Positions 1-39,593 of a DNA stretch of 40,328 bases are shown here, one piece after another. Within the stretch, counting starts at the first letter, position 1, and every line of letters begins with the position of its first letter. Position numbers and translations under genes: made by a program. Location of the stretch: IMG/VR virus record IMGVR_UViG_3300012665_000278, positions 1 to 40,328 of that record. One strand, 5' to 3'. A model generated the notes under the pieces. That model was not told the DNA's origin, made no database searches, and saw only the letters and a list, made by a program, of their open reading frames with translations. The stretch comes from a virus (taxonomy: Duplodnaviria > Caudoviricetes).

Positions 1-155
1 ACATGAACGGTACATTACGTAGTTGGATTCACTTTATTGAATTGCGTAGTGCTAATGGTACACAAAAAGAACATCAAGAAGTAGCTAAGATGTGTGCTAC
101 GGTAATTGCCCAAGCATTTCCTATGGCAAGCGAATTTGTTCAAACTGACTCTTAA
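1..155 (+). CDS. thyX: Flavin-dependent thymidylate synthase ThyX, C-terminal fragment (5' end outside window)
   Basis: My translation from nt 3 gives MNGTLRSWIHFIELRSANGTQKEHQEVAKMCATVIAQAFPMASEFVQTDS*, with TAA at 153-155. NGTLRSWIHFIELR..NGTQKEH matches the ThyX C-terminal motif. Not in the ORF track. Confidence 0.9.
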   Translation, partial: MNGTLRSWIHFIELRSANGTQKEHQEVAKMCATVIAQAFPMASEFVQTDS

Positions 156-792
156 GCCAATCAAAATCGTTGATTAAAGACAATGCCGGATTATTTCCGG
201 CATTTTCACATCCGTACTTGTTTCCAGCGAGTGCGCCTGAATAGGCATAATAGCCATATGGCACAGCATCGTTAATTGTACACCATTGATGTAATCTAGA
301 CAACGACTCTGGATTATTAATAACTGCTAACTTACAACATTCTCTAAATGCACTACGCCATGCGCTAAAAGGATCAGTATTAAATGCGGTAATGTTACTG
401 AGTTCTTCTACAACTTTAAACTGGTTACTAATGTTCATAGTCATGTCAGTAGTAGTTGTATCCATGTTTATTGTCAGTTGTCTTGGCAATAACTTAACGC
501 CGCCATAACCATATTCTAAACCATTAACAGGATTTTTACTTCTCCAAACATGTACAGTGTTTAAATTATATTCGTCTACAATATAACTAAAATCAAACGA
601 GTCAACAATAATAGCATCGCCGTCTACAACCCAAAACATTTTTGTAAAACATTTTTTGGCGGCGGCTATATGAGCATTGTGAATGCCTTTAATTCCATGT
701 ATGCGTTTAGCTAAAGGAAATCGAGATTTTAGCTTTGAAAAATTTTCATCCGCATTAGGTTCATTATAACTGATAAAAATAATATCGTACAT
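121..792 (-). CDS. GT-A-fold glycosyltransferase-like protein (pair A, copy 2)
   Basis: 223 aa. N-terminal DIIFISYNEP beta-strand and hydrophobic strand plus DxD (FWVVDGD), then YGYGGVKL and AWRSAFRE. Clear paralog of 792..1691, coupled to it by a TAATG overlap at 792. Confidence 0.7.
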   Translation of the reverse strand: MYDIIFISYNEPNADENFSKLKSRFPLAKRIHGIKGIHNAHIAAAKKCFTKMFWVVDGDAIIVDSFDFSYIVDEYNLNTVHVWRSKNPVNGLEYGYGGVKLLPRQLTINMDTTTTDMTMNISNQFKVVEELSNITAFNTDPFSAWRSAFRECCKLAVINNPESLSRLHQWCTINDAVPYGYYAYSGALAGNKYGCENAGNNPALSLINDFDWLKSQFEQIRLP

Positions 793-1691
793 TATCGTTT
801 GCGTATAATTCTTGGGGTATTATTATAGACTGTTTTAAAAAATCTACTAGCATCCGGGTCTAAATCAACAACGTCAATTTTAGATTTTTCTCTAAGTTCT
901 TTGCCATAAAATTTACACTGATCTATAGCAACATCATCTGCTTGATCTGCATGATGCTCGTTCCAGTAGGTAGTGAGATAATCAAAGTCACGAACATTAG
1001 CATAGTCCCAATCTGTACAATTGGTAAGGTATGCTCCTTCTCGGGCGCCTAATACAGACCAAAAACCATTTTCAACATCAGCACCAATATTACACCAAAT
1101 TAGTAATCGATGAAAGTTTTGCCACCAAATCTTTTTAAGGTCGCCAACTTTAGCACCTTGGTCCAGTGACATCTTTACACCCTCACGGAATCCGGCTCTC
1201 CATGCTTGAAATGGATTTCCGTTAGTAAAGCTCTCACTATAATTATCGTTAAATTGGTAATATCTATCATCAAAGCAAAACTCAACTTTTCCCTTAACAT
1301 CATTAGGATCTGAGTTTTCATGTGTACGCATATTGTTAACAAATTCTCGTGTCCACAATTTTAAACCACCGTTACCATACATTAATCCGTTAACATGAAC
1401 TTTGCCGCACCAACTAAAAACATTGTCGCTAGATAGTCCTAACGCATCCAAATCAATTTCAACTTCTTGGAATGACGGGTCTACAATGTTATCAGCATCT
1501 ACTGTAACAAAGTACTCAGTATCACTTAACGCGGCGCAGGCCTTGTGAGCTGAATCACTGCCCTTAACACCGTGTACTCTTTTTGCCCAAGGAAATTTTC
1601 CTAATAAATCTGCGTAATTTTTTTCTGCGTTAGGTTCGTCATAACTTAGAAAAATAATATCCTGGTCTATAATTTTAATTTTATTATTCAT
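792..1691 (-). CDS. GT-A-fold glycosyltransferase-like protein (pair A, copy 1)
   Basis: 299 aa. DIIFLSYDEPNA, YFVTVDAD (DxD), YGNGGLKL and AWRAGFRE align motif by motif with 121..792. Confidence 0.7.
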   Translation of the reverse strand: MNNKIKIIDQDIIFLSYDEPNAEKNYADLLGKFPWAKRVHGVKGSDSAHKACAALSDTEYFVTVDADNIVDPSFQEVEIDLDALGLSSDNVFSWCGKVHVNGLMYGNGGLKLWTREFVNNMRTHENSDPNDVKGKVEFCFDDRYYQFNDNYSESFTNGNPFQAWRAGFREGVKMSLDQGAKVGDLKKIWWQNFHRLLIWCNIGADVENGFWSVLGAREGAYLTNCTDWDYANVRDFDYLTTYWNEHHADQADDVAIDQCKFYGKELREKSKIDVVDLDPDASRFFKTVYNNTPRIIRKR

Positions 1692-2259
1692 GTGTTACCT
1701 TTAATCCGTATGATTTAAACACAAGTTTTGAACTGATAGAAATCTTATCAATTTTATGTTCTAACGAAGTTGTAAACGGAATCTTAATACTGCTACTGTC
1801 TAATAACTGTTGTAAATCAATGTATATTGTCCTAACTAAAAAGTCAAGATCACTTTCTAATGTTACAAAAAACACCAGTTTTGATGTTAGTATGTAATCT
1901 TTATATGTGTTCTTAACAGCGTCTGTTAGTGATACATTCCATGTTTTTAAAGGACCGTTCCACTCAACAATACATTCAGCGTGAGGATTTTCTGATATCC
2001 ATTCAAACACATTATTCTTAAATGTATATCCTTCATTGCCTACTGGAATAACTGCTAAGACTGTAGTATTATCAGCAAGACGTTTGTGTCCAACTACATA
2101 GTCTTTAAAATCTTGGGCGCCGGTTAATAAGCCTTCAATATCAGAAAATTCAACTTCGATGCCGTGTTCAAATACAGAACTTTTTTCATTAGTTGCTGAT
2201 AAAATTGCGCCAGTTTTTTTATTGTAGTATACATAATACTTAGGTAATTTAGTTGCCAT
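1684..2259 (-). CDS. Hypothetical protein inside the glycosyltransferase cassette
   Basis: 191-aa ORF overlapping both neighbours by 8 and 11 bp, with a GGAG SD upstream. Beta-rich, no catalytic motif recognised. Confidence 0.75.
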   Translation of the reverse strand: MATKLPKYYVYYNKKTGAILSATNEKSSVFEHGIEVEFSDIEGLLTGAQDFKDYVVGHKRLADNTTVLAVIPVGNEGYTFKNNVFEWISENPHAECIVEWNGPLKTWNVSLTDAVKNTYKDYILTSKLVFFVTLESDLDFLVRTIYIDLQQLLDSSSIKIPFTTSLEHKIDKISISSKLVFKSYGLKVTHE

Positions 2260-3091
2260 TATTCAACTCCTCTAACCGCTGTATTATCTTCTTAGATAAA
2301 AAACTTTTTTCAGTATAGTGAAATAACTTACTTTGTTTTATGTTGCCTACAATTAATTCGCCTTTAGTATTCAATACATAAGATACACTGTCTTGCCAAT
2401 TAGTTGTAGGCAAATCCCAACCTTGTATAAATGATTTCATATGTACAAATGCTAACGGACTACACTGATGAATAATTTCATCTTCAAGTCCAGATAATTT
2501 AATTGCAATTGCTGTTGCTAAATCCATGCTTAGGACGTTTTGATAATTATTAGGGGCAAATTTATCGTAACACCATTCCCAGTTATTACACACAAACTCT
2601 AATGTTTTGTAAAACTCGTATGATGTTTGATTCTTTTTAAAATAGTGTAGGGCACAATACGGCCCAGGTAGACTATTTGAAATAAATGCTTTTCTATATA
2701 CAGTATCCGTTACAGATTCAAGTTTATGATTAGTTATTTGAGAACAATATGTGAGGTTATAAGGTTTACAAAAATCCCACCAACTTGATATATCTTCTAA
2801 CATGATCATATCACTATCTAGTACTATAGTTTCTTCGTACGGTGTTACATGATACAATTTCCATCGATGCTCGGCAGCATATCTTGTTGAGGTATTTGTA
2901 TCAACCCAAGGTATTGGAATTATATTATCAAAGACTTTTTGATATTTTTTAGGAACAATATCATTAGTAACTAAGGTCACATTCTTATGAGTGTGTTGGC
3001 TAAATTTAATACTCAGTGCTAGAGCATAGGCCTGCTGAACATAGTTAACACTATTAGTGTTTTGAGCGAATATTAAAAATCCCTTAGACAA
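2249..3091 (-). CDS. GT-A-fold (GT8/GT71-like) glycosyltransferase-like protein (pair B, copy 2)
   Basis: 280 aa, TTG start with GGAGAG SD. KGFLIFAQN, VTPYEETIVLDSDM (DxD), SMDLATAIA and a late FVHMK His motif. Paralog of 3084..3929. Confidence 0.7.
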   Translation of the reverse strand: MSKGFLIFAQNTNSVNYVQQAYALALSIKFSQHTHKNVTLVTNDIVPKKYQKVFDNIIPIPWVDTNTSTRYAAEHRWKLYHVTPYEETIVLDSDMIMLEDISSWWDFCKPYNLTYCSQITNHKLESVTDTVYRKAFISNSLPGPYCALHYFKKNQTSYEFYKTLEFVCNNWEWCYDKFAPNNYQNVLSMDLATAIAIKLSGLEDEIIHQCSPLAFVHMKSFIQGWDLPTTNWQDSVSYVLNTKGELIVGNIKQSKLFHYTEKSFLSKKIIQRLEELNNGN

Positions 3092-3929
3092 GTTGCTCTC
3101 CTTCTAACACACGAAGCAGGCTGATCTTATTCATAACATGTACGTCAATGCCTGATGTTTTTACTGCTAGATATTGTCCAAGGTGGCTCTGTTTCTCTAC
3201 GAGAAATTTAAACTTATCATCTTTCATCTCAATTAAAATATCTCGATCTTGAATGTATGTCATAGTACCCGGTAACGGTGTAGCAAATTGGCCGTTTGTT
3301 TTACCGTTCATAATGTGTATAGCAATACTAAAAGCATAGTCATTACGATATGTTGCTGAATCGATGCCGTATAAAATTTTAAAATAATTCCAGTTTGCTT
3401 TAATATACGTAATTAAATCAAAGAAAGCGGCAGTTACTTTATTTTTTTCAAACACAAAAACAGTTGCCCAGTAAAACGGAATAGAGTAAGAATTTAATCG
3501 TTGGAAACACGCAGTATCTCTCCAGCCTGCTAGATCAAAGCTATTTTGATAAATTTGAAAATCGGCATCTACTTCAAACGCAGACTTTAGTATTGAAGAA
3601 CTTAAAATATAATCGCTATCAACTACTAGTGTTCGATCATACGGTGTTAAATCATAAGCACGATTTCTTGATAAATTTTTCCACTCTAATTTTTTACTAG
3701 CCATTGTTCCGTCATAAAATAATTTTTGAGTAGACGGTTCTGATTGGATTTCAATAATTTTATCAAAGGGGTGTAGGTGAAAGTTTTCATCAAGCCACTT
3801 GCGATTGTCAGTTACAATACTAACTGGAATATTTAAAAACTTTTTAATTCTCGTTGCAGCAAATACTGCTAATCTAGTGTAGTCAATACTAGCATTATTA
3901 TGAGCAAAAATTAATGCGCCGTTGCTCAT
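3084..3929 (-). CDS. GT-A-fold (GT8/GT71-like) glycosyltransferase-like protein (pair B, copy 1)
   Basis: 281 aa. NGALIFAHN, LTPYDRTLVVDSDY (DxD), RNDYAFSIA and VHVMNK. ATGA overlap with the upstream ORF. Confidence 0.7.
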   Translation of the reverse strand: MSNGALIFAHNNASIDYTRLAVFAATRIKKFLNIPVSIVTDNRKWLDENFHLHPFDKIIEIQSEPSTQKLFYDGTMASKKLEWKNLSRNRAYDLTPYDRTLVVDSDYILSSSILKSAFEVDADFQIYQNSFDLAGWRDTACFQRLNSYSIPFYWATVFVFEKNKVTAAFFDLITYIKANWNYFKILYGIDSATYRNDYAFSIAIHIMNGKTNGQFATPLPGTMTYIQDRDILIEMKDDKFKFLVEKQSHLGQYLAVKTSGIDVHVMNKISLLRVLEGEQLV

Positions 3930-4276
3930 AGGCCAGTCATATCCTCAATTTTTCTTTTAGATTTAATTTCAGCAAATTTAACAGAATAATCGTTAATGGC
4001 TTGAAAGTAGCTGTCTACAATATTATTGTAAAACGATTGTACGTCAGTAATTAAAATTGGAAAGTTATTAGAATCAATAAACGGAACATCAGAGTTGTGT
4101 CCCATTTCTAATACGTTTTTTGTAAAGTTAATTAAGGAATAATCAATTTTAAAAGTACCACCATTAGTGTAGTATATTAATTTTTGATTAAATTCTTCTA
4201 AGATTATTCTGCGTTGATTTGATAAGGTTGCCATGTAATTAGCAACTTCAAACGCTTGTTCAATTCGTTCGTCCAT
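3926..4276 (-). CDS. Hypothetical protein, first gene of the cassette; possibly like a tail-fibre chaperone (DUF4376-like)
   Basis: 116 aa with GGAG SD. Pattern is helix, NGGTFKID, helix, FIDSNNFPILI, long C-terminal helix. The chaperone resemblance is by eye only. Confidence 0.6.
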   Translation of the reverse strand: MDERIEQAFEVANYMATLSNQRRIILEEFNQKLIYYTNGGTFKIDYSLINFTKNVLEMGHNSDVPFIDSNNFPILITDVQSFYNNIVDSYFQAINDYSVKFAEIKSKRKIEDMTGL

Positions 4277-4296
4277 AGATAACTCCGTAATGTACT

Positions 4297-4325
4297 ATTA
4301 TACACTACAGTAGTTATCTGGTCAA
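4297..4325 (-). promoter_or_regulatory. Sigma70-type promoter for the glycosyltransferase cassette
   Basis: Minus strand reads TTGACC (4325-4320), a 17-bp spacer, then TATAAT (4302-4297), about 20 nt before the ATG at 4276. The spacer contains GATAACTA (4318-4311), one mismatch from the late motif GATAAATA. Confidence 0.75.
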
Positions 4326-4335
4326 TACTTTTGAG

Positions 4336-5223
4336 TTAAACGATTCCGGACGAAGTAGCTGCCGGTGTTGCTACAGTAACCGATCCTGATGATCGATATA
4401 CTTTTACGTCACTAGTTAATGTACCTGTAACGTCTTCGTCAATGTCCCATGGAGGATTTGGAGCTGGCGCAGATGTTGCGTCATCACGGAATTGAATTTC
4501 AAATACTAGCTGACTAGTGCTTGGCGCACGAGCATAGATTCTATATGAGTTCGGAACATAACCTGTTGATACAGTTTTTTCGTATACTAGTTGGTTAGTA
4601 GTTGTTAGATCATACCAACCAATACTTGTTCCTGATCCGCCACCAGTAGGTGTTGTAGTATCATAGTTAAAGTATACAGTACCAATTCCTGATAAGTTAG
4701 AAACCCAAGATTGGTCTTTTGGTGAGCTAGATGTGTTTGTTAAACTAGCACTAAATTCAAATCGACTGCCGGTGTTAAAAAAGAATCGAGCGGCGTCTGC
4801 GCTGGCAAAGTTAATAGTAACTGTTTGTACTCTAACACCGTTCCAGCTGGCAGTTCTTACAATACTTCCAAAGCTAAGAAATTCGCGAGTTGCTTCAGTA
4901 ACTGGTGGAGCAACTAGTCTATTAGTAGTAGCAGTATCAGCACCTAGCATATATGCCGCACGGGTTGCTTCTGTAACTTTTACGTTTGTAGCAGGCTGAG
5001 TCAATACTGGATCAGTTCCAGTTTGGTGTTTTAAGCACTTAACTAAATCAGTTCTTAAATTGTTCCACTGCGCAACAGATATAATAGCATTTGTAGCAAC
5101 TTGGCTACTAGATACAGTTTGTCCGTATCCAAAGGTTGCGGAACCAGAGCCTAATACGGTGGCAATCTTTGTTTGAATTGCGTTGTAATCTGTTACTAAT
5201 ATTAATGTATCTTGACCGGCCAT
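4336..5223 (-). CDS. Putative virion structural protein (Ser/Thr-rich, beta-rich C-terminal domain)
   Basis: 295 aa, last gene of the fibre cluster, with its own late-type motif and GAGG SD. N-terminal DYNAIQ..IATVLG.G...GYGQ and QWNNLRTDL segments. Confidence 0.6.
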   Translation of the reverse strand: MAGQDTLILVTDYNAIQTKIATVLGSGSATFGYGQTVSSSQVATNAIISVAQWNNLRTDLVKCLKHQTGTDPVLTQPATNVKVTEATRAAYMLGADTATTNRLVAPPVTEATREFLSFGSIVRTASWNGVRVQTVTINFASADAARFFFNTGSRFEFSASLTNTSSSPKDQSWVSNLSGIGTVYFNYDTTTPTGGGSGTSIGWYDLTTTNQLVYEKTVSTGYVPNSYRIYARAPSTSQLVFEIQFRDDATSAPAPNPPWDIDEDVTGTLTSDVKVYRSSGSVTVATPAATSSGIV

Positions 5224-11266: not shown

Positions 11267-13948
11267 TTAATTAACTAGTATGTTAACGTTAGGTGCTGGA
11301 AATATACCAAGTCGCACATTCATTGTTAACAGCGTAGAAGACAGAATAGTAATGGGTAAACTAGCTGAATTGTCAGTTACTGTTACAGTTCCAGTTAATG
11401 GCACGTTAATATCAGCTGATGAAAATGGATACACAGAACCACTAACACTTGTACTCCAACGAGCATTTGCGCCTATATGGGTATCGATTTGATTTGGCGT
11501 GTTTTCATAAAATACTGCTTCGTACACCATATTTGGACTTCCTAATGTACCACTAGTCGATGCAGTTCCTTCCCAACGAACCCTATAAGTTCTATTAGGA
11601 GCAACACCTTCTGTTCCATAGTATATTCTCTGTGCTGAGTTATCAGCACAACTTATCATAATTTTAGGGATTGGAGGATTAGAAGCACTTAGCTGAGCAT
11701 ACTCTTGAGATCCTGCCCCAAAGGTAATGTAGGTGTTTGTACCAATGCCAATAGTAGTATAACTTACTCCTAAATATTGTACAGACCACGGTAATGTTAT
11801 TATCCAATAGCCATCATCTTGGTTGCCTGTAAATGGAATTGCGCCTGTGCCAGGTGTTGCCGATGCTAATGATGCCGCCCCTAATAAACTATTTGTTATT
11901 GGAGTTGATGAACCGTTAGCAACACTTTGCGTAGTTATTCTATTGCTATTATTTGGCCGAGTATTAAAACTACTTGTTCCCGAAACTAATGTATCAGAAC
12001 TATATATGCCGCTGAAGGCGCTTGTAGTTAATACCGGCTCACTAGAAGCTCTTGGCTTTGCTGTAACAATATAAGGAACTAGTGTGCCGTTTGCCACATT
12101 AGTTGTTGCTACTGTCATTGTAACTGTATTTCCAGTTATCACCGTGTTTGAGCTAGCTGTTAAACTAAAAGTAGCGGCAGCATTATAACTGTGAAAATTA
12201 CGTTTACGGGGATAAACTAATCCACTAGGCGGTCTATGTTTACTAGTTGCTTCTGGAAAAGGAACTGGATGGAACCCGCCAACTTCAGCGGTAGGCATTC
12301 TAGTGCCTTGTAACAATAACATTTGTTTGTTACTTGCTGGATTATATGAGAACCCGGCATCTTTCCAATCTTGTGCCCCACCATTGGTACTAATAACTGT
12401 TTCAGGTGCAGTGTACTTAAGGTATTCTCTTGCGTCTGCCTGTGTCATCCTTGGATATTTTTCTGCTATACAAGCTAAAACTCCTACAGTGTTTGGACAA
12501 CTCATACTAGTGCCAGGACATTTCTTAAAATTATTATTAACAGTATCAGTTAATCCCAGTGCGGCTACACGAGGGTCAGGGGCATTATTAGAATCATACA
12601 ATGAGGCACCAGCTGTCCATATACTTTGTACACCAGAGCCGGGGGCCCACACATCGATACGTGGCCCGTAGTTGCTAAATTCTGCTTTGTAGTCGCCTAC
12701 TTCAATACCTGTTGAGCTATATACGCTTGACCCACTTGGCTCGTTGTGTTGACCTATTGCTCCAGAAGTAATAATTTTTGTATTTTCAGTACCACCGTCG
12801 GCAGCTCCGGGACTACTACCTCTGTGAATGTATAATGTTGAGCCGCTCTGTACCATAGTATTGTTATAATCTAGGCCGTCTATATCATCTTGGTAAAAAT
12901 AACTGTTGCCGGCGCTAGCAACTATGATAACACCTTCGGCCATAGCATCAACCATATCAGCATCTGTGGCGGCGTTCCTTGCTGGAAACGCACCGGTAGT
13001 ATTAAGTCTAGCAATATTATTAACAATGTTAGCATCCCATACATATGAACCAGCTGTTCCGCTTGTTGGGAAATACTCAACACCTCGTATTGTAAACTTA
13101 GATACATTAGCCGTGTTTACTGCGCCGCCTCGATAACCCCAACTATTATTCATTACAGTTGGATTTTTAACACCGGTTAAAGGATTAATAGGTTTATTTT
13201 TATGAAACTCTCGAACATAATCAATACTATTATTATATGTAAGATTGTATATGTTAGCATCACGTGCCCAACCTTGTGTATTACCTGCTACAGTTCCAGT
13301 TGTGTGAGCGCCATGTTGTTGTAATCTGTTTGACGAATAAGGGTATTGCCCAACTGCTCCCCCGGTTACTACAGGATTATGAATATACCAATTATATTCA
13401 ACCATTCTGCTGTAGCCAGTCCCGTCAGCATTTTGCTGGTATTCAAGAGTCGTAGGATATGGACAGCCATCATCCATAATTACCACGTCAACGTTCCTTC
13501 CTGAACAATCTGATATTAGAGAACCTGAGAACTCTACAGTTCCGTTGATTCCCCAATTAGGAATATCTTCTTTTCGTAAGCATCGAAGAAGTCCCCAATT
13601 AAGATCAGCAGAATTACTGCCAACACGTTTGTCAAATTGTGTTGACGTTTGTTCAAAACCGTATGTACCTTTAATAAACCCTAAGTCAGCTGGATTTAAT
13701 TCAACTGCTAGTACTCGTGGATCATTTCTAATCTGTGCCGCTTCGTCATACGTCAGCATGTAGTGGGTATTTCTACTAATTGGTCTGCGATTAATGCATT
13801 CAACTGCACGCTTAGGAAGATATAAATTGCCGCCGATCTCTTCCATGTCGTTATAAAATGCTGTTGAATCTTCAAAATCTTTGAGAGTAACTATATACTC
13901 TTTTAAACTCTGATCTTCAGGGTTGCCGAGATGTGGAATTGGATCCAT
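11267..13948 (-). CDS. Subtilisin-like S8 serine protease with propeptide and C-terminal beta-rich domains
   Basis: 893 aa. Catalytic motifs in S8 order: VDVVIMDDG (Asp), HGAHTTGTVAG (His), VASAGN (oxyanion Asn), FSNYGPRIDVWAPG and GTSMSCP (Ser). I9-like propeptide EYIVTLK...IRNDPRVLAVE. No signal peptide. Confidence 0.92.
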   Translation of the reverse strand: MDPIPHLGNPEDQSLKEYIVTLKDFEDSTAFYNDMEEIGGNLYLPKRAVECINRRPISRNTHYMLTYDEAAQIRNDPRVLAVELNPADLGFIKGTYGFEQTSTQFDKRVGSNSADLNWGLLRCLRKEDIPNWGINGTVEFSGSLISDCSGRNVDVVIMDDGCPYPTTLEYQQNADGTGYSRMVEYNWYIHNPVVTGGAVGQYPYSSNRLQQHGAHTTGTVAGNTQGWARDANIYNLTYNNSIDYVREFHKNKPINPLTGVKNPTVMNNSWGYRGGAVNTANVSKFTIRGVEYFPTSGTAGSYVWDANIVNNIARLNTTGAFPARNAATDADMVDAMAEGVIIVASAGNSYFYQDDIDGLDYNNTMVQSGSTLYIHRGSSPGAADGGTENTKIITSGAIGQHNEPSGSSVYSSTGIEVGDYKAEFSNYGPRIDVWAPGSGVQSIWTAGASLYDSNNAPDPRVAALGLTDTVNNNFKKCPGTSMSCPNTVGVLACIAEKYPRMTQADAREYLKYTAPETVISTNGGAQDWKDAGFSYNPASNKQMLLLQGTRMPTAEVGGFHPVPFPEATSKHRPPSGLVYPRKRNFHSYNAAATFSLTASSNTVITGNTVTMTVATTNVANGTLVPYIVTAKPRASSEPVLTTSAFSGIYSSDTLVSGTSSFNTRPNNSNRITTQSVANGSSTPITNSLLGAASLASATPGTGAIPFTGNQDDGYWIITLPWSVQYLGVSYTTIGIGTNTYITFGAGSQEYAQLSASNPPIPKIMISCADNSAQRIYYGTEGVAPNRTYRVRWEGTASTSGTLGSPNMVYEAVFYENTPNQIDTHIGANARWSTSVSGSVYPFSSADINVPLTGTVTVTDNSASLPITILSSTLLTMNVRLGIFPAPNVNILVN

Positions 13949-15927: not shown

Positions 15928-18900
15928 TTATCCTTGGTCCATTGTTACGTTTGAACTGTCAAATGTGCCAGCCCCGTTGTCAAACGTTGTTGCCACTTTC
16001 TTTTCATATTTAGCGATAGTGTTATACCAGATTCCTGGACTATCTTTTAAGAATCTTGCTACTTTATTTTCATCATCAAGAATACTAACAGTAGTCTTAC
16101 CATCCCAGTCAGTACCTGTACGCTTAACTACAGTAATACGAGTACCAAACGCAGGAGCAACTGTCAATTTTACAAAGTTATCTTCACCGTTAACTGAAAA
16201 TTCTGCGTCAAACTGAACATCGCCCTCAGGGCTTTCTGGATGATTAGTAATACTGTGAACCTTATAAGGTTTCTTCTTCAATCGTGTACCACCGACAAAC
16301 ACTTCAATATCATTAGATTGGCCAAAATCTATCGGTAGTGCTAATGGACTCCAATTAGTTGTTACTGTTGGTAAAATCCCTGTTGAGCTCTTGTTATTAA
16401 CATAATACACACCAGCATAAAGTACTACATCATTCTTAGCATACATAACCGTTGGTCGGTACGTTGCGTCAAAATTATTATTAGATGATGCTGTTAAATT
16501 AAATCCGTATTCGTTAAACCATCCAACAAGGCCGGTTGGTTCATAATTAGGCAACGTAACATCAGTAAGGCCTTTAGTTGGAGTAAAGTTAATTGGAACA
16601 ATGTTAGTACCGTCAGATACAATCGTTTCTGTTATAGATACATCCACATACGGAACTGTTTCACTCGCTCCAATGTCTTGTACATACGAACCAGCTTTAT
16701 GAACTAGTGGAACACCTGTACCTAATGTACCGCGTCTAATTTGTCCTAGAACATTTCCAGTTAGTGTATAGTATTCAATACGCTCACCGCGGATTTCAAT
16801 AACACCTGGCTTGTTAGCTAATCTGTTTGGAATATCAAACGTAGTAGCATCGTCAACTGTAATCGTTGTAGCAGTCTGCGTTAAATCAAGTGTTAGTTTT
16901 GTTTGCTTGGCCGCACTTAGACGCTTGTAATGAATACGATTTAACATATCTTTAAATTGCATATAAGCGATACTCGTACCTAACACATCACTACTAAATG
17001 TTAATAGTGTATATGTTTCATTGTACGATGGAAGTATGGCTAAGGTAATACTTTGCTTATCACTGTTCACTTTGAAATCAATACTAGGTGTTAGCAACTT
17101 GCCATCTTTAATTACCCAAACATATCTATCGTCAATCACTGGACGGTCTAATACAATGTATCCACCTGACAGTCCAGTATATGTATAAAACTCTGTCGTA
17201 TTAGGAGTAACTACAACGTCTGATGTGATAGTTACCGCAGTACTTTGAATATCTAAGATATCGTGTTTATAAGCACTAATTATTTCTACAGTTTGACCAA
17301 GAGCAGGTGCTTGTGTAAATTTAATTCTTGGAGGGTTAGGTAAGTAGGCGTAGCCTTGCTCTTGTTTAACGCTAACAATCAACTGAGCACCAATATTAGT
17401 ATCACGTAGTAATTGATTTAAACGAACTGTGATTCCACTTAGGTCAACATTATAATCAATGCCAGGATCTAATAAGTTACCAGCTATCAACACACTAATA
17501 TTTTGACTTGATACTGAGTACGGTAGGAACTTAGTCGGATCTACTGTGTAATTAATCTGATTACCTTTAATCTTAAAGTATATGTTTGTAGGGCCAGGAA
17601 TAATATTATCGCCAACACGTACAATCATATTTGATTCGCTTGGTAGTGCATCACCAACTTGTGAAGTTAGTGAATAGGTATCAGTGCCGCTTGGAACAAT
17701 TTTTTGTGAACTTATCACAGAGAATGTTTGTTCAGCGCCGCTTACTATTACAAAATTAATCAATGCTCCAACAGTTGGTGGTACAACGAATCTAATACCA
17801 ATTCTATCTGAATTTTCGTATGACGAATCTGTTTGGAATAGTTCAACTGATTGAGGTTGTCCATTAACATACACTAGTGACGTTACTGTTTCTAACCACG
17901 GCGCTTTTGTAATAAACTCTGTAGTAGTACTGTCGCCGATAAAGTAATCTAAATCTAATATTCCAGAACCGTTGAATCCAAAGCTGAAGATTGCGATGTT
18001 AATGCCGACGGCAGGAGTATTAATAAACGTTACAACATTACTTGCGTAGTCGTATGTATAATCAACACCGTCTGTCAATATTAGTGATATTGATTCAATA
18101 GTTCCGTCAATGTTACGTTGGCCTCTTTGTGTTTTAACTACGATAGCATGAGGACTATTTGGTTGTTGCGACACTGAGAAGTTAACTTCATTACCGTCAC
18201 CAATGTAACTATCAAGTTTAATATTTGCTGAACCTCTTTGCGGTTTATCGTAAACTTTAATTGCTACAGTATCAACTACTTGGCCAGGAACAACTTCTTC
18301 CGGTGCTGGGCTACTAGTTGGGGTTACAAAACCGTCACCATCTAATATAATGTCTTCAGCACGTAAACCAGTAGCACTTGAATATGTTAGATCACCGCCA
18401 CTTAGCGCAGTATCATAATCAGCATCTTGTGGTTTAATAGAACCGTCACTAGTACTCTTACGTAGAATAAATTGATCACCATCGTTAATAGTAAAGCGAT
18501 CGTTTACTGGAGTGTATTCAAAAATGTTAACTTGGCTTCGTGTGCCGTCACCTAACCATGTAGGCATCACTACATCTGGTTTATTAGCCAGCGGTGTGCC
18601 AACATAGGCCGGATCGTCAATTCTTGCAGGTGTTGAAAATGCTTGAATAGTAATCACTAATTGATTTGGTAATGGGTCAGTTAACTGTACTGTTCCGCTA
18701 GCTAATGGCGTAAAGTCAGTTGGGCTAACTAATTCTCTTGTAAAGGTTGCTGTCGAGCCGGCTGGAACATCTTTAAATAAAATTTGATCTAGTCGGACAT
18801 CTGTACTATTAATAATTTCAACAATTTTAGTATTGTATCCAATTGTATCTAATACATAAGGCGTAACTGTTAATACATCGCCAACTTTAAGTCCTCGTGT

Positions 18901-21900
18901 TCCAGTGTCAGTAATATCTGTAAAAATCAAATTACCGTCAATAGCTCCATCGTTGGCAACACTTAATTGAATAATGTTTCCAAAGATATCAGTAACTGTT
19001 ACAGTGCCTGAACCTAAACCTACTTGGCCGGTAACTCTCATGCCTACGTAGATGCCACGATTGTCAGCAACTGTTACTGTAATATCGCCATTGTTACCAG
19101 TAGCGGCTACTGTAACCGGAATATTAGTCACAGTAATGATGTTACTTCCTGCTACATTGTTAGGAGAAACTAATACTCGTGTTTGTTTAGACGCATGTAC
19201 CTGAGGAGGAAATATATTATAAATGCTAAAATTATAACCAGTTGTTATGCCGTCTGATACATATGAAATTGTATCTAACTTAGAATGGTAAACGTTAATT
19301 TTTTCATCAAGAGCAGGAACGTATGGAAGTGTAAACACTGAGGTTCCGGCGTCTACTGATACAATGTAGTCGTCAAATGTGCCGTCAAAGCTGTCCCACT
19401 TGTCTGAATAATAAGGCAGTGATCCCCAACCGCCGCTAACATCAAATCCAAGACCACTAACAATAACACCACCGTAGTCAATACCAGTCATTAACTGTGC
19501 TAAGTCTTTACCTAGTTCGCCAGTTGTTGGATTGTAGTAGTATTGAATTCGATCAGCGGCATTTAGCATCGACCAATCTTTAATATAGTTAACTGTGATT
19601 GTTGCCCCTGATGGCGGAGCTTCATCAAATTTGATTGAACCAGAATAGCTAGTATACCCGCGAGCAGTTGACTTAACAATTGATAGAGTATAGTTTACTC
19701 CAATAGTGTCTACGCCGTTTATCGACACTGTTGATTTACCCACTTGGGAATTAGGCGCCCATGTTAATGGGAACTGTAATCGACTACCTGTGCCAACTAA
19801 TGTTTCTGTTTCTTGTAAGTTAGTAATATAGTAGGCTTGTGTTATTCTATCAAACTTCATTTTAACAAGACTTGATCTTACAACACTCTTACCAATAGTG
19901 GCAATAACTCTAGCAGGTTCACCAATCGGTGAAAGGCCACCATCAATTATAATTTCTGGAGCACTTAAATATCCTTGGCCAGACTTAGACAACACTATAC
20001 GATTAACTTTACCGTTAGCAATGAACGCTCTAGCAGTTGCTCCAGATCCAGAATTGCTTATAATTCTTACTGCCGGTTCAGTAATATATCCTGATCCGCC
20101 GTCTACGATATTCATTTCTGTAACAACAAAGCCAACATTATCTAACCAGTGTTTCCACGGATATGAAATAATAGCATTGCTGTTGGCTGTTATCTCACCA
20201 TCAATTACATTAGTAACAATGTTTGATAATTGGCCGTTTTCAAATACTGGTGGTACATCAAAGTCGGTAACTGATAACTCAGCGGTATCAATTTTTGTAT
20301 ATCCGCTAATGTATTCTCTAATTTTTGTTCTGTAGGGTTTTACTTCAGAAACATAATCTTCAAAATCTGAAAGGTTATCATTTCTATAAGTTACATGCTG
20401 TTGTAAATCTCCAACATTGTGTTGAACCTTGACAAAACTTGTCTTAAAGATCCAATCAATATAATTTTGTTCGCTTAACGCATAACGCACAGTAACAAAG
20501 AATAAATTTAAAAACTCTGATTTAAGATCGTCAATTAAAATATTATTTTTTAACGCTAACAGAATATTTCGCAACTCTTTAGATGCTACGTTATCGAATA
20601 TTGCTACATCGTATAATGTACCATCGTAACCGTACTGAGTATCAGCAAACTGATATAACGAAGATTTAAACTGTACTGTTCCGTTCTGCATACCGATAAC
20701 ACGGTAGCTCTGCGTCCAATCAACTGAATTAGACTCAGCGTACTTTTCTAATAACATCCAGCCGCTGTTGTTACTTGTTAATACTTTAACTGTATCGCCT
20801 GTTTCAGCAGTAATAGTATTAAGATCTGAAAGAGTGTTTATCGAGTAGTCAGTAGCAGTAAACTGATTATATCCAGTAGCATACCAATCTACATAAGACC
20901 AATATCTTCTTGTGTCGTATGTTTGAGTCTGAATACGTGACCAAACTTGTGTTTGCGGCTCGTAGCCGTAAGTACTCCAGTTACCGCCGGCTTGACTATC
21001 ACTCTTAACTAGAACTGTATAGTTTCTAATAGTTAAGAATGTATTAGTTGCGTCATATCCAGAGCCTTGAGAAATAATTTCTGCTCCAGAAATTCTGCCG
21101 TTGGCTCCTAATACAGCTCTAATCTTTGCGCCAGAGCCCTGGCCGGTGACTGTAATATACGGGGCTATTAAATATCCGCTACCTTTATTGATAATTGTTA
21201 CGTCAACAATTTTACCGTCAACGATAACTGGAATAGCCGACGGGCTAGTGAATGTTCCAATGCCGGCAAATCTTAATTCATCATCAGTGTCTAACACAGT
21301 ATCGTATAGTCCTGAAATTATAGATGGTGCTGGATCAAAAGATAACAGCGAAGTAATGTCTCTAGACTCTGTTATCTGTTTGTTGATTAATACACTATTA
21401 ACATTTTCAAATAATTGTTTTAGTGCTTCAAATCTATTAACAAACATACCTTGTCTTGGTCTATTTTCAACACCGTATCGAATCTTAATAGGCAGTGTTG
21501 TATCAGGCACAACTCGATCATATATGTCTTTGCCGCATAAACTATCAAACCACTTGTCTTCAATCTTGGCAGGGATTGCTGTATCTGGATTATTACTAAT
21601 TAATTTCCATTGTGTGTGGATATTTTTATCTATCTTATCAACGGTCCAATATTCAATTGACAACACTACGTTAGCATCTGCTAGATCAGGTTTGATGTTT
21701 ACTAAACTAAAACTGTTAGCACTAGTTAAGGCAATATATTTGTATCCGGCGCCTCGAGGATTGCTAATTAGATTAGCAACGTCTTGACTAGATACTTGTC
21801 TGTTAGGTACGTTAGGAACTGTCTTTTTATTCTTAACCCAATAGTAATAAGTGTTCTTTAATGTTTTAGAAACGTTGTCGTATTTCTGTACACGACTATA

Positions 21901-24900
21901 CACATCGTCACCGTATAAAGTTTGTCCGCTAATATCGTTTGCTAGGCCGTCTTCGGTGTCTGCTTGAGAATTCCAATCTGAAGGTATATATTTTGATTCA
22001 ACCCATTCATAAACGTCAATACTTGCTCCAGGGAATAGTGTATTCCAGGTGCTGTTTCTATAAACAATATCGTTATCGTAGCTGTCATAGAACTTAGCAG
22101 TTCTTAGATCCCACCATAACATACCAACTTGAGATGTTGTCCAGGCCATGCCGTCATCAACATTAACCTCACTGTTACCTACTGAATAAGTTGCTGGGTC
22201 ATAAAATGTTTTATACTTAATTTCTTGATCTGCTGAACCTGGAATTTTTCCTTGGTTTGAATCTATCACATCAAGATATGTGATTAGTTTGTTAGTAGTT
22301 TTATTGTATAAGAATGCCTGTTTAATTTTATTAACATCAGGTTTATCAATTTCACTATGGATTACACTCCAGCTATAAGTATTTGGCGCCTTGCCGTACT
22401 GGAATACTCGACCTGTTTTAATTCCGTTAACTTCAGCGTATGGTGCGCTAACAACAATATAGTTTGCGCCAACAGCAAAACCTTCGCCGTAGCCCGCATC
22501 ATCAACGTTTTCATTTTTTAGGCTTTCGCTGAATATCCACTTTGTACCGTATTGGTCATAAACATCAACTCGGCCACCGTTGACTGCTGTAGTAACAAAT
22601 CTAGTAATGTTATTATCAAACGTTGTTGGTGTTGCGCTAGTACCAGATGCTGGATTACCAACATATTTTGAAGTACGTTGGGCGCCTGTACTTGTTGTAA
22701 AGGTAAATGAATCGTATGTGTCTAAATATTTGTCAGAAGTTATTGTAGAATAGCTGTCAGCGTTCTTACTATACACAACTAATGTTTTAGCATTATTCAT
22801 AAATGCTACTTTAGACCCAAAGAATTGTGCTGTCTCTGGATTAGGATTTACTAACTGCTGATATAGCTCATAACTTGATACGGGCTCATTATCAACTATG
22901 GTAGTAGTATATTTGTATATTGTTACAGAACCTTGATCTGTTTTTTCTAAGTCGGCATATATTGACGAAACAGCAATATATAATCCGTCATCTGACACTG
23001 AATTATTAAGACCGTACTCTGGCTCTAAAGATGATCCTACTAGAGCATCAATGTTAACATACTCGTTGTTAATTTCTTTATACAAATATAAAGAATTTAC
23101 TGATTCACTTGGAGCTGAAATTAATAAAGTAGAATTATCTTTACTAATTGAAATTGAAGTACCGAAGTTTCCAGGAAGTTCTTCTGGTGATACTAAAATA
23201 TTTCCGTACCCCCAACCAGTAGAAGTGAAATTAATAATGCCTACTGGTAGATCATCAGGTTGAAGGTTTAATCGAATAGTAGTTGAATCAATAACTGAAA
23301 TAACAACTTGGCCGCTGTTAAAGCCTGCGCCAACAATAGCCATGCCTGGTTCAATACCTACCGAACTAGTAACTTTTACTATAGGACCAGAACTGCCTGC
23401 TGGATTATATGAAGTAGTTACTCGTGTTCTAGTTTTATAATTTAATTCATAAACTACACCTTGTTCATTATTTGCGCCAGTGGCACCAATAAACAATGTG
23501 TTTTCACCAAACGCCAGGCTTGCGCCAAACAACTCTCCATCGGTTGGTAAAGGACTAATAATAGTGTCAACAAGTTCAAATATGTTATTTGAATCTTTTC
23601 TATAAATTGACACAACACCTTGTTGTATTTTAGTAGAGTTAGTACCACCAATCTGGAACGGCTCAGCTACTACATATTCTAATTCTTTCCAATATGCCAA
23701 GTTTAATCTTGTTTCAGCCTGATCTAAGAACAACGGATGATCTGCTGGGCTGTGTGTTACTTTAGATCTAAAAAATCTACCTTGATAGCTTACAATAACT
23801 CCAACAGTATAATCGTTGTCTTGCTCATTCCATGTTATATCGTTGTAGGCTGTAGATACTCTGTTAGCTAAAGGAGTGCCAGTTGCTAGCCATTCAGCAT
23901 CTGCTGATAATGCTAGTACACCGCCAGTTAAATAATCAGGAGTTGCGTTACTGCCTGCGATAGTATTTGATATAAACGGTGCTGTAATTGTTTGACGTTG
24001 AATCCACGGTGATGCTAAACTTGCCTTGTCGTATACCGCAAGCTCGCCTAGGTTGTTTGAAACAATCGCAATCACACCTTCGTTATTAATAATAACTTTT
24101 CTACCGTATGCTAACCCGTTAGCATTAACAGTATTAGCTATTTCTTCGTTATTATAAACTGGAGAAAATTTCCAAGTAGACCATTTGCCTTGGCCGGCAT
24201 CGTCAACCCATAGTAGTTCATTTTCTTTTAAAACTTTAGGTAATAATTCGTCAGCTCGATCAATAGCAAGGGATACTAATTCACCGGTAGCTTCGTTATA
24301 CACATTTTTTGCTCGTTGAGTAGTAAACACAAATACTACCATTGGATCTTGTTCAACAAACGGATCTGGGAAGTCTACAATGTCAGCATCAACAACTAGT
24401 TTGTTTAAAGTTATTGATTTTATTTTATAAAATCCTGAAAATTTACTAACTTGGGTAATTCCAATTATATTTCCAACTACTAAACTAGTTAATTTGTCTG
24501 TGGTTATAGTTAATTCTTTAACAGTATCATCGTATGAAACATCATTGATACCAATATTAGCATCTGTGTATCTATAAACATTCCACTCACGGCCTTCAAA
24601 ACCTACCCATACATAGTCACCGTTGGCAAACTGAGAAATATCCTGTGTAAGAATATCATCAAACGTAGATAATGTTAACGCAACTTCATCAGGTCTTACA
24701 TATCCTGGTGTTCGTAAATATGGTGCTGATGTTAATGCTAGTGGCCACGGGGCGTTATTATAACCTAACGGTTTTAAATAAATGTCGTTAGGCGTTTGTC
24801 TAGCAATAAAATCAATTTTGTTAGGATCAATACTGTTAACTAATTCAAACCCTTGAGGGTTATTTTTAAATACTGCTTCATCTAATACAAATTCAATATT

Positions 24901-39510: not shown

Positions 39511-39534
39511 AATAAATATTTCCTTTTGGTAACA

Positions 39535-39542
39535 TATTTAGT
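39535..39542 (-). promoter_or_regulatory. T4-late-like promoter motif ACTAAATA heading the baseplate operon
   Basis: Intergenic, 24 nt upstream of the ATG at 39510. Identical 8-mer to the motif at 5245-5252. Confidence 0.6.
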
Positions 39543-39570
39543 TGACTTTTTAATGTGCGTAGTTTATAAT
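39542..39570 (+). promoter_or_regulatory. Sigma70-type promoter for the late sigma gene
   Basis: TTGACT (39542-39547), a 17-bp spacer, then TATAAT (39565-39570). GGAG SD at 39581-39584 and ATG at 39594. Confidence 0.8.
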
Positions 39571-39593
39571 AATACTATCCGGAGATATCATTA

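What the first reader, a model, noticed from the sequence alone, without database searches (positions are those of the whole stretch)
121..4276. Six-gene cassette with four glycosyltransferases at the end of the tail-fibre region: candidate virion/fibre glycosylation system
Seen: six co-oriented genes, every junction overlapping (ATGA, 8 bp, 11 bp, 8 bp, TAATG). Four have GT-A-type hydrophobic-strand-plus-DxD motifs (DSD, DSD, DAD, DGD), all intact. The cassette directly follows fibre and structural genes that are very rich in Ser/Thr. No membrane segments, flippase or sugar-nucleotide synthesis genes are visible. Established: GT-A enzymes use DxD for metal and NDP-sugar binding, phage-encoded virion glycosylation is known in some actinobacteriophages, and T-even phages glucosylate their DNA. 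Inference: this is a soluble multi-step glycan-building pathway whose likeliest acceptor, by gene position, is the tail apparatus. DNA hypermodification (thyX is adjacent) and host-surface modification are the alternatives.
Basis: partly seen in the sequence, partly recalled or inferred. Interest (0 to 1): 0.85.

Follow-up and report, generated by a model that had tools for sequence, protein, structure and literature searches.

The report
Jumbo-phage fibre-linked four-glycosyltransferase cassette
Many large aquatic phages carry, directly behind one tail-region gene, a conserved block of four genes predicted to be sugar-transferring enzymes plus two small helper genes, which likely builds a sugar chain on the phage's own tail fibres, although the target is untested.

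Summary
The cassette is real. All six overlapping genes and four DxD motifs check out. Two proteins were folded: g3 is glycogenin/GT8-like, g5 a minimal GT-A core of an unclassified family; g2 and g6 are their paralogues. It belongs to RsoM2USA-like jumbo myophages and is very common in aquatic metagenomes. It tracks the structural gene u1, not thyX: u1 precedes it in 53/55 close and 13/14 distant loci, and searching from u1 finds it behind u1 in 32/32. Against DNA modification, a 335-kb relative has no hydroxymethylase, C5-methylase or T4-type glucosyltransferase by Pfam, and RsoM2USA keeps its own such pair far away. Best reading: virion fibre glycosylation (about 0.5); host-surface, small-molecule and DNA acceptors remain open. 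It resembles published fibre-adjacent glycosyltransferase islands but has a rigid, unannotated core. This scan noted the same cassette before on other genomes.

The parts
4336..5223 (-). u1: last gene of the structural block, 26% Ser+Thr; candidate acceptor or anchor; likely a virion protein
   Evidence: Homologue in PA5oct (gp360, tblastn E 2e-5, 29% identity) is flagged ESI-MS/MS in its record; TAAATA late-type motif upstream in 31 of 43 relatives; no Pfam, PHROG or PDB match
4297..4325 (-). sigma70-type promoter-like site TTGACC-N17-TATAAT
   Evidence: Best site in 12 kb, 11 of 12; at least 10 of 12 in 38 of 46 distinct g1 upstream regions against 0-5 of 15-63 for ten other genes
4278..4318 (-). 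RNA hairpin spanning the promoter spacer, the -10 box (loop) and the g1 ribosome-binding site
   Evidence: -22.9 kcal/mol, z -5.33; 89.6% of cells paired, frequent G-U alternation, 3 pairs with double changes in 31 chosen sequences
3926..4276 (-). g1: small acidic non-enzymatic protein; weak lead to DUF4376 tail-fibre chaperones
   Evidence: ESM Atlas nearest named cluster PF14301, score 0.90, 167 of 256 features; not confirmed by Pfam (0 of 46 members) or hhalign against three DUF4376 proteins
3084..3929 (-). g2: predicted GT8-like glycosyltransferase, DSD 104-106, His264
   Evidence: hhalign to g3 family 98.9%, E 2.4e-17; invariant D104, D106, H264; not folded itself
2249..3091 (-). g3: GT-A glycosyltransferase fold closest to glycogenin/GlyE/LARGE1/LgtC, DSD 92-94, His217
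   Evidence: pLDDT 93.5; Foldseek glycogenin E 6.6e-9; Z 16.2, rmsd 3.7 over 207; invariant D92, D94, H217
1684..2259 (-). g4: divergent beta-rich accessory protein without a conserved catalytic motif
   Evidence: Mean column identity 44%, 3 invariant columns, no invariant DxD; only viral unnamed clusters in ESM Atlas, Ig-like lead at 0.80 only
792..1691 (-). g5: minimal GT-A core (residues 4-158) plus helical C-terminal half; unclassified family also found in bacteria; DAD 65-67
   Evidence: pLDDT 95.6; Foldseek PBCV-1 capsid transferase 2p73 E 3e-5, ThuS/SunS E 1e-4 to 4e-4, nucleotidyltransferases at similar E; best Z 9.7, rmsd 3.5 over 139
121..792 (-). g6: paralogue of g5, DGD 57-59; relatives add tandem N-terminal repeats of a degenerate half domain
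   Evidence: BLASTP to g5 34%, E 8e-33; 220-984 aa forms; not folded itself
3..155 (+). 3' end of thyX, convergent neighbour; not part of the system
   Evidence: Pfam Thy1; within the locus in 64 of 80 close loci, 1 of 16 distant phage loci, 0 of 32 u1-anchored loci

Best explanation
This is a conserved six-gene block of large aquatic myophages, sitting behind the structural gene u1, whose four predicted glycosyltransferases likely build an oligosaccharide in the host cytoplasm on a virion tail or fibre protein, most likely u1 or its neighbours. Inferred mechanism: g5 and/or g6 (GT2-like, resembling peptide/protein transferases) would attach the first sugar from an NDP-sugar to a side chain; the GT8-like pair g2 and g3 would extend it; g1 and g4 would act as chaperone-like adaptors that hold the fibre or the enzymes. 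In relatives, swappable genes between g5 and g6 (radical SAM, aminotransferase, acetyltransferase, UDP-sugar dehydrogenase, methyltransferase-like) would diversify the sugars. In this lineage a sigma70-type promoter would supply the enzymes before fibres are made, while the hairpin would mute g1 translation from upstream read-through transcripts. Shown: gene anatomy, predicted folds of g3 and g5, motif conservation, synteny, promoter-like and hairpin conservation. Inferred: catalysis, order of steps, acceptor, roles of g1 and g4, timing.
For: (1) Linkage to u1 in both directions: u1 directly upstream in 53 of 55 close IMG/VR loci with room, 13 of 14 distant loci and RsoM2USA; with a u1 homologue as query, g1+g2 follow in 32 of 32 distinct loci with at least 1.5 kb of room and g1,g2,g3,g5 in 26 of 26 with at least 4.5 kb. 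The link survives the rearranged structural region of RsoM2USA. (2) The u1 homologue of PA5oct is a mass-spectrometry-flagged protein. (3) g2/g3 occur in 16 of 80 GTDB loci, all 16 with phage structural genes beside them. (4) No DNA handle: a 335-kb cassette-bearing contig with capsid, portal, terminase, polymerase, primase, helicase and RNR genes has no ThyA-family, C5-methylase, Tet_JBP or T4-glucosyltransferase Pfam hit among 300 of 306 ORFs scanned; RsoM2USA has its own dCMP hydroxymethylase (E 1e-22 to T4) and beta-glucosyltransferase (E 5e-39) about 210 kb away in record coordinates. (5) No membrane segment, flippase or export gene in the cassette. (6) g5 leans to protein/peptide transferases: fold hits to PBCV-1 capsid transferase, SunS/ThuS and a Che8 glycosyltransferase (E 1.8e-4), weak profile hit to GmaR (E 0.053), and 2 of 80 GTDB loci fuse it to a GT-B domain beside a C39-peptidase ABC exporter and HlyD. 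(7) A late-type TAAATA motif precedes g1 in 14 of 40 marine loci. (8) Precedents: mycobacteriophage capsid/tail-tube glycans (as cited in PMC12363180); glycoproteins reported for the related jumbo phage XacN1 (PMC5852040).
Against: No glycan, activity or binding was observed. Gene order in these phages is conserved generally (the thyX-MoxR block is too), so adjacency may be inherited rather than functional. u1 works without an adjacent cassette in PA5oct-like phages, which are as Ser/Thr-rich. The window's lineage uses a sigma70-type site, not the TAAATA motif of u1/u2/u5 (38 of 46 versus 2 of 46), which fits early functions as well. g5's fold hits are weak (TM about 0.3) and tie with polysaccharide transferases and nucleotidyltransferases. 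Most bacterial g5 homologues sit with radical SAM, GT2, GT4 and GT28-like genes in Bdellovibrionota and marine Alphaproteobacteria, not with peptide exporters. The DUF4376 lead for g1 failed two profile tests. None of the ten RsoM2USA virion bands named in PMC8504454 is a cassette product or ORF355, and glycans were not examined in the passages read. XacN1 gave no tblastn hit with g5 or g2, so its glycoproteins are not due to this cassette as far as detected.
Confidence: 0.5

Rival explanations
1. The cassette remodels a host envelope glycoconjugate (LPS core/O-antigen precursor, capsule or glycolipid) on the cytoplasmic side, using host flippases, to mask the receptor that the neighbouring fibre recognises (superinfection exclusion or receptor conversion).
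For: This is the published reading of fibre-adjacent GT8-rich islands (PMC7029224 passages; PMC7824862 section 22). g3's fold neighbours include LgtC and WbbM. A sigma70-type promoter allows early action. The 335-kb relative encodes Kdo- and heptose-pathway-like genes elsewhere. Co-inheritance of a receptor-binding gene with a receptor-masking kit would also give tight linkage. g5/g6 sit in bacterial glycosyltransferase clusters.
Against: The core is rigidly syntenic and highly conserved (g5 72-83% in 79 relatives) rather than host-variable, and occurs in soil, freshwater and marine phages. No membrane or undecaprenyl-handling gene in the core. Late-type motif before g1 in 14 of 40 loci. Two phage-only accessory proteins are unexplained.
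Confidence: 0.22
2. The enzymes, with the radical SAM and methyltransferase-like partners seen in relatives, glycosylate a soluble acceptor that is not part of the virion: a peptide, host protein or small metabolite used in counter-defence or competition.
For: g5+g6+radical SAM+methyltransferase-like genes recur in Bdellovibrionota without g1-g4; g5-type and g6-type clades both contain phage and bacterial members; GT-B-g5 fusions beside C39 exporters and g5-Sel1 fusions.
Against: The window and most close relatives have no tailoring gene, precursor or exporter in the cassette; does not explain the fixed position behind u1.
Confidence: 0.16
3. The cassette hypermodifies phage DNA, adding an oligosaccharide to a hydroxylated or otherwise modified base.
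For: GT8-like phage enzymes with a PBCV-1 top hit extend glycans on 5hmC, and such clusters can lie among structural genes (10.1101/2023.12.21.572611 passages). Early-type promoter. RsoM2USA encodes a dCMP hydroxymethylase. The 335-kb relative has QueD-, QueE-, FolE- and QueC-like genes and several 2OG-Fe(II) oxygenases, so an unrecognised handle is possible.
Against: No hydroxymethylase, C5-methylase or TET gene in or near the cassette in any locus annotated; none by Pfam on the 335-kb contig, where the same search finds the RsoM2USA enzyme; 30 of 31 IMG/VR fragments lack any ThyA-family match and the one hit scores as a canonical ThyA (fragments are 12-45% complete, so weak). thyX linkage is clade-specific, and ThyX makes ordinary dTMP (established knowledge). 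The Tet_JBP search had no positive control.
Confidence: 0.12

Closest known systems
Host recognition cluster (HRC) of pelagimyophages and cyanomyophages (PMC7029224, passages read)
   Same: Glycosyltransferases, chiefly GT8, and radical SAM cassettes placed beside tail-fibre genes in aquatic myophages; acceptor untested.
   Different: The HRC is described as a non-syntenic hypervariable island between VrlC and gp14. Here a six-gene core is rigidly ordered, has no Pfam/PHROG annotation, lies in RsoM2USA/XacN1/Atu_ph07-like jumbo phages, and only RsoM2USA among 50,697 phage records matched g5 or g2.
Mycobacteriophage virion glycosylation (Che8, Corndog, Myrna; Freeman et al. 2023, not held, seen only as cited in PMC12363180 and PMC12619734)
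   Same: Several phage-encoded soluble transferases acting on virion proteins; a Che8 glycosyltransferase is a fold-level neighbour of g5 (E 1.8e-4, TM 0.33, 10% identity).
   Different: No sequence homology detected; reported acceptors are capsid and tail tube; no g1/g4 equivalents known to me; unrelated phage lineage.
Chlorovirus PBCV-1 capsid-glycan transferase (PDB 2p73/2p6w)
   Same: Top Foldseek PDB hit of g5 (E 3e-5); Z 11.4 to g3; virus-encoded cytoplasmic glycan assembly.
   Different: Eukaryotic virus; similarity is fold-level (TM 0.28-0.38) and not diagnostic of acceptor.
Glycogenin / GlyE / LARGE1 / LgtC group (GT8-type; family label recalled)
   Same: g3 fold, DxD and C-terminal His.
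   Different: 9-15% identity; no Pfam match at E up to 0.1.
5mYOX/ThyS-linked phage DNA glycosylation clusters (10.1101/2023.12.21.572611) and T4 hydroxymethylase plus beta-glucosyltransferase
   Same: Successive GT-A transferases, some GT8-like.
   Different: No methylase, oxygenase or hydroxymethylase partner at this locus; RsoM2USA keeps a T4-type pair elsewhere.
Four core glycosyltransferase orthogroups of 'moraphages' (PMC12619734, passages)
   Same: Four conserved putative transferases in aquatic jumbo phages; the paper raises DNA, host and virion targets.
   Different: Whether these are the same genes could not be tested: the sequence files were not readable here.

Membership tests
GT-A fold superfamily | Rossmann-like alpha/beta core aligning with solved GT-A enzymes | tested here: met
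   g3 Z 16.2, rmsd 3.7 over 207; g5 Z 9.7, rmsd 3.5 over 139, residues 4-158; g2 and g6 by paralogy only
GT-A fold superfamily | Conserved DxD after a hydrophobic strand | tested here: met
   ExD in 6 of 18 distant g3
GT-A fold superfamily | Metal-dependent transfer from an NDP-sugar | not testable with these tools
   Needs an enzyme assay; nucleotidyltransferases also appear among g5 fold hits
CAZy GT8 (g2, g3) | Closest structures are glycogenin/LgtC-type, with DxD and a C-terminal His | tested here: met
CAZy GT8 (g2, g3) | Sequence-profile match to the family | tested here: not met
   No Pfam family at E up to 0.1; RsoM2USA orthologues none at 0.01; no CAZy library on hand. Called GT8-like, not GT8.
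GT2 (SunS/GmaR-type) (g5, g6) | Profile or structural match above background | tested here: inconclusive
   Glycos_transf_2 E 0.001 below cut-off in one fused homologue; GmaR E 0.053; SunS/ThuS tie with other folds
DUF4376 tail-fibre chaperone (g1) | Match to PF14301 | tested here: inconclusive
   ESM feature score 0.90; 0 of 46 members by hmmscan; hhalign probability at most 0.3% against three single sequences
DUF4376 tail-fibre chaperone (g1) | Directly follows and binds a fibre protein | tested here: inconclusive
   Follows u1; u1 is not shown to be a fibre; binding untested
Host recognition cluster | Fibre genes together with glycosyltransferases and radical SAM genes | tested here: met
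   Window and relatives
Host recognition cluster | Non-syntenic, hypervariable gene content | tested here: not met
   g1-g2-g3 in order in 63 of 63 close and 14 of 14 distant loci with g1; only the g5-g6 interval varies
Host recognition cluster | Lies between VrlC and neck gene gp14 | tested here: inconclusive
   Downstream neighbour here is thyX and no gp14 was annotated in the window; VrlC was not searched for specifically
Phage DNA sugar-hypermodification cluster | C5-methylase plus 5mYOX, or a hydroxymethylase, in the same cluster | tested here: not met
   Tet_JBP search lacked a positive control
Phage DNA sugar-hypermodification cluster | Sugar-modified nucleosides in virion DNA | not testable with these tools
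   Needs nucleoside LC-MS
Phage virion glycosylation system | Glycans on virion proteins dependent on the phage transferases | not testable with these tools
   Needs glycoproteomics or reconstitution

The most novel reading that the evidence does not exclude
A large, abundant group of aquatic jumbo phages encodes a dedicated fibre-glycosylation machine of a kind not described for tailed phages: chaperone-like adaptors (g1, g4) present a tail protein to a new family of protein-initiating transferases (g5, g6), a GT8-like pair elongates the chain, and a swappable radical-SAM/sugar-tailoring insert between g5 and g6 diversifies it, making glycan-decorated fibres a widespread determinant of host recognition or particle survival.
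Probability: 0.3. Interest if true: 0.8.

Novelty: new variant of a known kind. Interest (0 to 1): 0.5.

Why it matters
Glycosyltransferase clusters beside phage fibre genes are usually assumed to alter host LPS, and this has not been tested in the papers read here. This cassette is a minimal, rigidly conserved, fully soluble six-gene version with a named candidate substrate (u1), so the question can be tested by reconstitution. The g5 family is large (at least 8,000 clusters at 90% identity; 1,240 at 50%) yet has no Pfam or PHROG model. If fibres are the target, virion glycoproteins are common among aquatic jumbo phages.

Tried and rejected
Pfam and PHROG scans of the six proteins gave nothing usable: g4-STING_LBD E 0.006 below cut-off, g3-phrog_1903 of unknown function. 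Sequence searches of the PDB with g3, g6 and the u1 profile found nothing significant. Ser/Thr richness rejected as evidence. Net charge rejected as a DNA-binding test: the cassette enzymes are neutral to acidic, but so is the RsoM2USA beta-glucosyltransferase homologue. The number of 11/12 sigma70-like sites in the window (3) is at chance level (2.7 in shuffles); only position and conservation count, and one of the other two precedes the late sigma gene. thyX as a functional partner rejected. g1 as DUF4376 and g4 as a tail-assembly chaperone were not confirmed. The C-terminal half of g5 was not folded alone, so no claim of a new fold. No RNA holder listed for the stretch; no reads were laid. 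A scan with the RsoM2USA g5 found no IMG/VR relative. The g5/g6 tree is the quick version with long branches, so no direction of transfer is claimed. Long g6 goes with expanded u1 in 5 of 5 loci versus 9 of 37, but these are about three related groups, so it is a lead only. No paper describing this cassette was found in searches (open-licence library only); the moraphage files, XacN1 Fig. S4 and the preprint's tables were not seen and could bear on novelty.

Full report
Observation. I name them g1-g6 in reading order (4276 down to 121) and the upstream structural genes u1, u2 and so on. No protein has a membrane segment. None has a useful Pfam or PHROG match. g5 and g6 are paralogues (34%, E 8e-33), as are g2 and g3 (hhalign 98.9%).

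The genome. The window is the whole record held. It holds baseplate, collar, gp9/10, gp25, gp53 and late-sigma genes, and its baseplate protein is about 35% identical to those of Atu_ph07, PA5oct and 121Q-like jumbo myophages. Among 50,697 phage records only Ralstonia phage RsoM2USA matched g5 or g2; it has all six genes, with a radical SAM gene between g5 and g6 and a methyltransferase-like gene after g6 (the methyltransferase label is my reading of motifs, no Pfam hit). In metagenomes the cassette is common: 556 IMG/VR stretches for g5, 582 in a partial scan for g2, at least 8,000 protein clusters at 90%.

The enzymes. The g3 model (pLDDT 93.5) is closest to glycogenin (E 6.6e-9; Z 16.2, rmsd 3.7 over 207), GlyE, LARGE1, UGGT and LgtC, with invariant DxD and His. 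The g5 model (pLDDT 95.6) has a minimal GT-A core at residues 4-158 and a helical second half; hits are fold-level: PBCV-1 capsid transferase (E 3e-5), ThuS/SunS, WrtF, and nucleotidyltransferases, and in the viral library two uncharacterised relatives and then a Che8 glycosyltransferase at rank 6. A profile of 111 g5 sequences hits GmaR weakly (E 0.053). g2 and g6 were not folded. Fold does not settle the acceptor: DNA-modifying GT14I/GT43I are also GT8-like with a PBCV-1 top hit (10.1101/2023.12.21.572611, passages). g1 and g4 look non-catalytic; g1's resemblance to DUF4376, annotated as a tail-fibre chaperone (PMC10579305, one table passage), rests on an ESM score of 0.90 and failed Pfam and hhalign tests.

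Synteny. Among 80 close IMG/VR loci, 63 include g1 and all 63 read g1-g2-g3; u1 is directly upstream in 53 of 55 with room (misses L042, a contig-edge u1-cluster fragment, and L056); thyX is in 64 of 80. Among 80 GTDB loci, 16 have g2/g3, all beside phage structural genes; u1 precedes g1 in 13 of 14, thyX is near in 1 (two pairs of these loci are near-duplicates). Because those searches selected for the cassette, I reversed the test with a u1 homologue from a distant relative: of 80 loci, 55 distinct, 32 had at least 1.5 kb downstream and all 32 carried g1+g2; 26 of 26 with 4.5 kb carried g1, g2, g3 and g5; none had thyX. The counter-example is the PA5oct group: a u1 homologue (29%, flagged ESI-MS/MS in the record) with no cassette in the 9 kb behind it and no g2 or g5 match in the genome. 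Its u1 and u2 are as Ser/Thr-rich as ours, which removes that argument.

DNA handle test. I read a 335,231-base cassette-bearing contig in full. It encodes capsid, portal, terminase, sheath, polymerase, primase, helicase and RNR, so it is probably near complete, though it has no end repeats. Among 300 of 306 ORFs of 110 aa or more (six over 1,300 aa left out) Pfam finds thyX about 73 kb from the cassette, but no ThyA-family, C5-methylase, Tet_JBP or T4-glucosyltransferase gene; six-frame searches agree, with a working positive control for the ThyA family but none for Tet_JBP. Between g5 and g6 it carries radical SAM, acetyltransferase, DegT aminotransferase and UDP-sugar dehydrogenase genes, so the pathway comes with sugar-donor chemistry. 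RsoM2USA does have a T4-type hydroxymethylase and beta-glucosyltransferase, but about 210 kb away in record coordinates. Queuosine-pathway-like genes and 2OG oxygenases keep an unrecognised DNA route possible.

The 59-bp gap before g1 holds TTGACC-N17-TATAAT, the best site in 12 kb. Such a site (at least 10 of 12) is in 38 of 46 distinct g1 upstream regions but 0-5 of 15-63 for ten other genes, whereas TAAATA precedes u1 (31 of 43), u2 (32 of 35) and u5 (15 of 15) but g1 in only 2 of 46. In more distant lineages the class varies: sigma70-like in 6 of 15 and 22 of 40, TAAATA in 14 of 40; earlier scan notes that called the operon late-expressed fit those lineages, not this one. A hairpin (z -5.33) covers the spacer, -10 box and ribosome-binding site; in 31 sequences chosen for alignability (30 of the 46 plus L083) 89.6% of cells pair, G-C/G-U swaps are frequent and three pairs change on both sides (related sequences, structure taken from the window, so suggestive only). 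By analogy with T4 genes e, soc, 49 and I-TevI (PMC3014915, passages), read-through transcripts would be muted and promoter-initiated ones translated; this is inference.

Bacterial relatives. g5, with or without g6, occurs in Bdellovibrionota with radical SAM and GT2 genes, in marine Alphaproteobacteria with GT4, GT28-like and caspase-Sel1 genes, and in 2 of 80 loci as a GT-B fusion beside a C39 exporter. A quick tree of 76 of 110 domains separates g5-type from most g6-type sequences by a long, fully supported branch, with phage and bacterial members on both sides. The cassette is thus a phage-only g1-g4 part joined to a g5/g6 part shared with bacteria.

Mechanism and odds. Virion fibre glycosylation explains the two-way link to u1, the phage-only accessory genes, the lack of membrane parts and of a DNA handle, and the late motif in some lineages: 0.5. 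Host-surface remodelling, the published reading for similar islands (PMC7029224, passages; PMC7824862, section 22), explains early expression and co-inheritance with a fibre: 0.22. A soluble non-virion acceptor: 0.16. DNA: 0.12. Nothing here shows catalysis, an acceptor or a complex.

Known systems and novelty. It works like the host recognition cluster and like mycobacteriophage or chlorovirus virion glycosylation, but fails the hypervariability feature of the first and shares only folds with the others. XacN1, placed in the same clade as RsoM2USA (PMC8504454, abstract and passages), is reported to have glycoproteins (PMC5852040, passages) but showed no match to g2 or g5. The moraphage paper lists four core transferases whose identity with these genes I could not test. 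Searches found no description of this cassette in the library held. The scan noted look-alikes in 35 windows of 30 genomes; those notes supplied the HRC paper and the peptide-cluster lead, which I checked, and are not independent support. Verdict: real, a new variant of a known kind, interest 0.5; 0.8 if fibre glycosylation is shown.

Noticed in passing
L171:7607-8443 and L171:1890-3020 (RsoM2USA ORF10, ORF2): ORF10, listed as a putative thymidylate synthase in PMC8504454, matches T4 dCMP hydroxymethylase best (E 1e-22, keeps the Asp of the GFRND motif); ORF2 is a T4 beta-glucosyltransferase homologue (E 5e-39), next to a CofD-domain ORF1. The phage likely has sugar-modified hydroxymethylcytosine DNA.
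   Followed up: partly
L067:10900-13854, L077:5541-7844, L005:4029-5741 and others: g6 relatives grow to 446-984 aa by tandem N-terminal repeats of about 100 aa resembling a DxD-less half of the domain; all 5 loci with doubled or very long u1 have a long g6 (not independent).
   Followed up: partly
L007:1524-7328, L067:936-6383, L023:5127-7325: u1 is duplicated and extended with Ig-like (He_PIG) repeats or Gly-rich C-terminal domains in some relatives, as expected of an adhesin-like appendage.
   Followed up: partly
window 39514-39593, + strand: An 11/12 sigma70-like site (starting 39542) precedes the late sigma-factor gene; TAAATA 19-24 nt before u1, u2, u5, u9 and u14 marks the likely late promoter.
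   Followed up: partly
window 182-204: A 9-bp GC-rich inverted repeat inside the 3' end of g6, 27 nt after the thyX stop; possibly the terminator between the converging units.
   Followed up: no
window 11267-13948 and 15928-30561: An 893-aa subtilase (Peptidase_S8) and a 4,877-aa virion protein with a CBM5/12 module inside the structural block.
   Followed up: no
L138:8753-13695 and L146:8741-14350: Bacterial GT-B plus g5 fusion proteins next to a C39-peptidase ABC transporter and HlyD: candidate glycopeptide clusters; no precursor identified.
   Followed up: partly
L107-L143 (Roseibium, Sulfitobacter, Tateyamaria, Ruegeria and others): g5 in a conserved neighbourhood with a GT4, a GT28-like protein and a caspase-Sel1-peptidoglycan-binding protein.
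   Followed up: no
L093-L105, L110, L111, L139, L144, L145, L153, L160 (Bdellovibrionota): g5, often with g6, radical SAM arrays and a methyltransferase-like gene, without g1-g4.
   Followed up: partly
L082-L092, L094, L096, L097, L100, L106, L109, L114, L141: Jumbo-phage contigs binned into bacterial and archaeal MAGs of unrelated taxa; those labels should not be read as hosts.
   Followed up: no
L248-L264 (335-kb relative): Rich auxiliary gene set: alternative oxidase, heme oxygenase with bilin reductase, phosphate ABC transporter, PEP carboxykinase, Kdo- and heptose-pathway-like genes, carbamoyltransferases, queuosine-pathway-like genes.
   Followed up: no
L002:12237-13457: A tryptophan-halogenase-family gene inserted between g6 and thyX on the opposite strand.
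   Followed up: no
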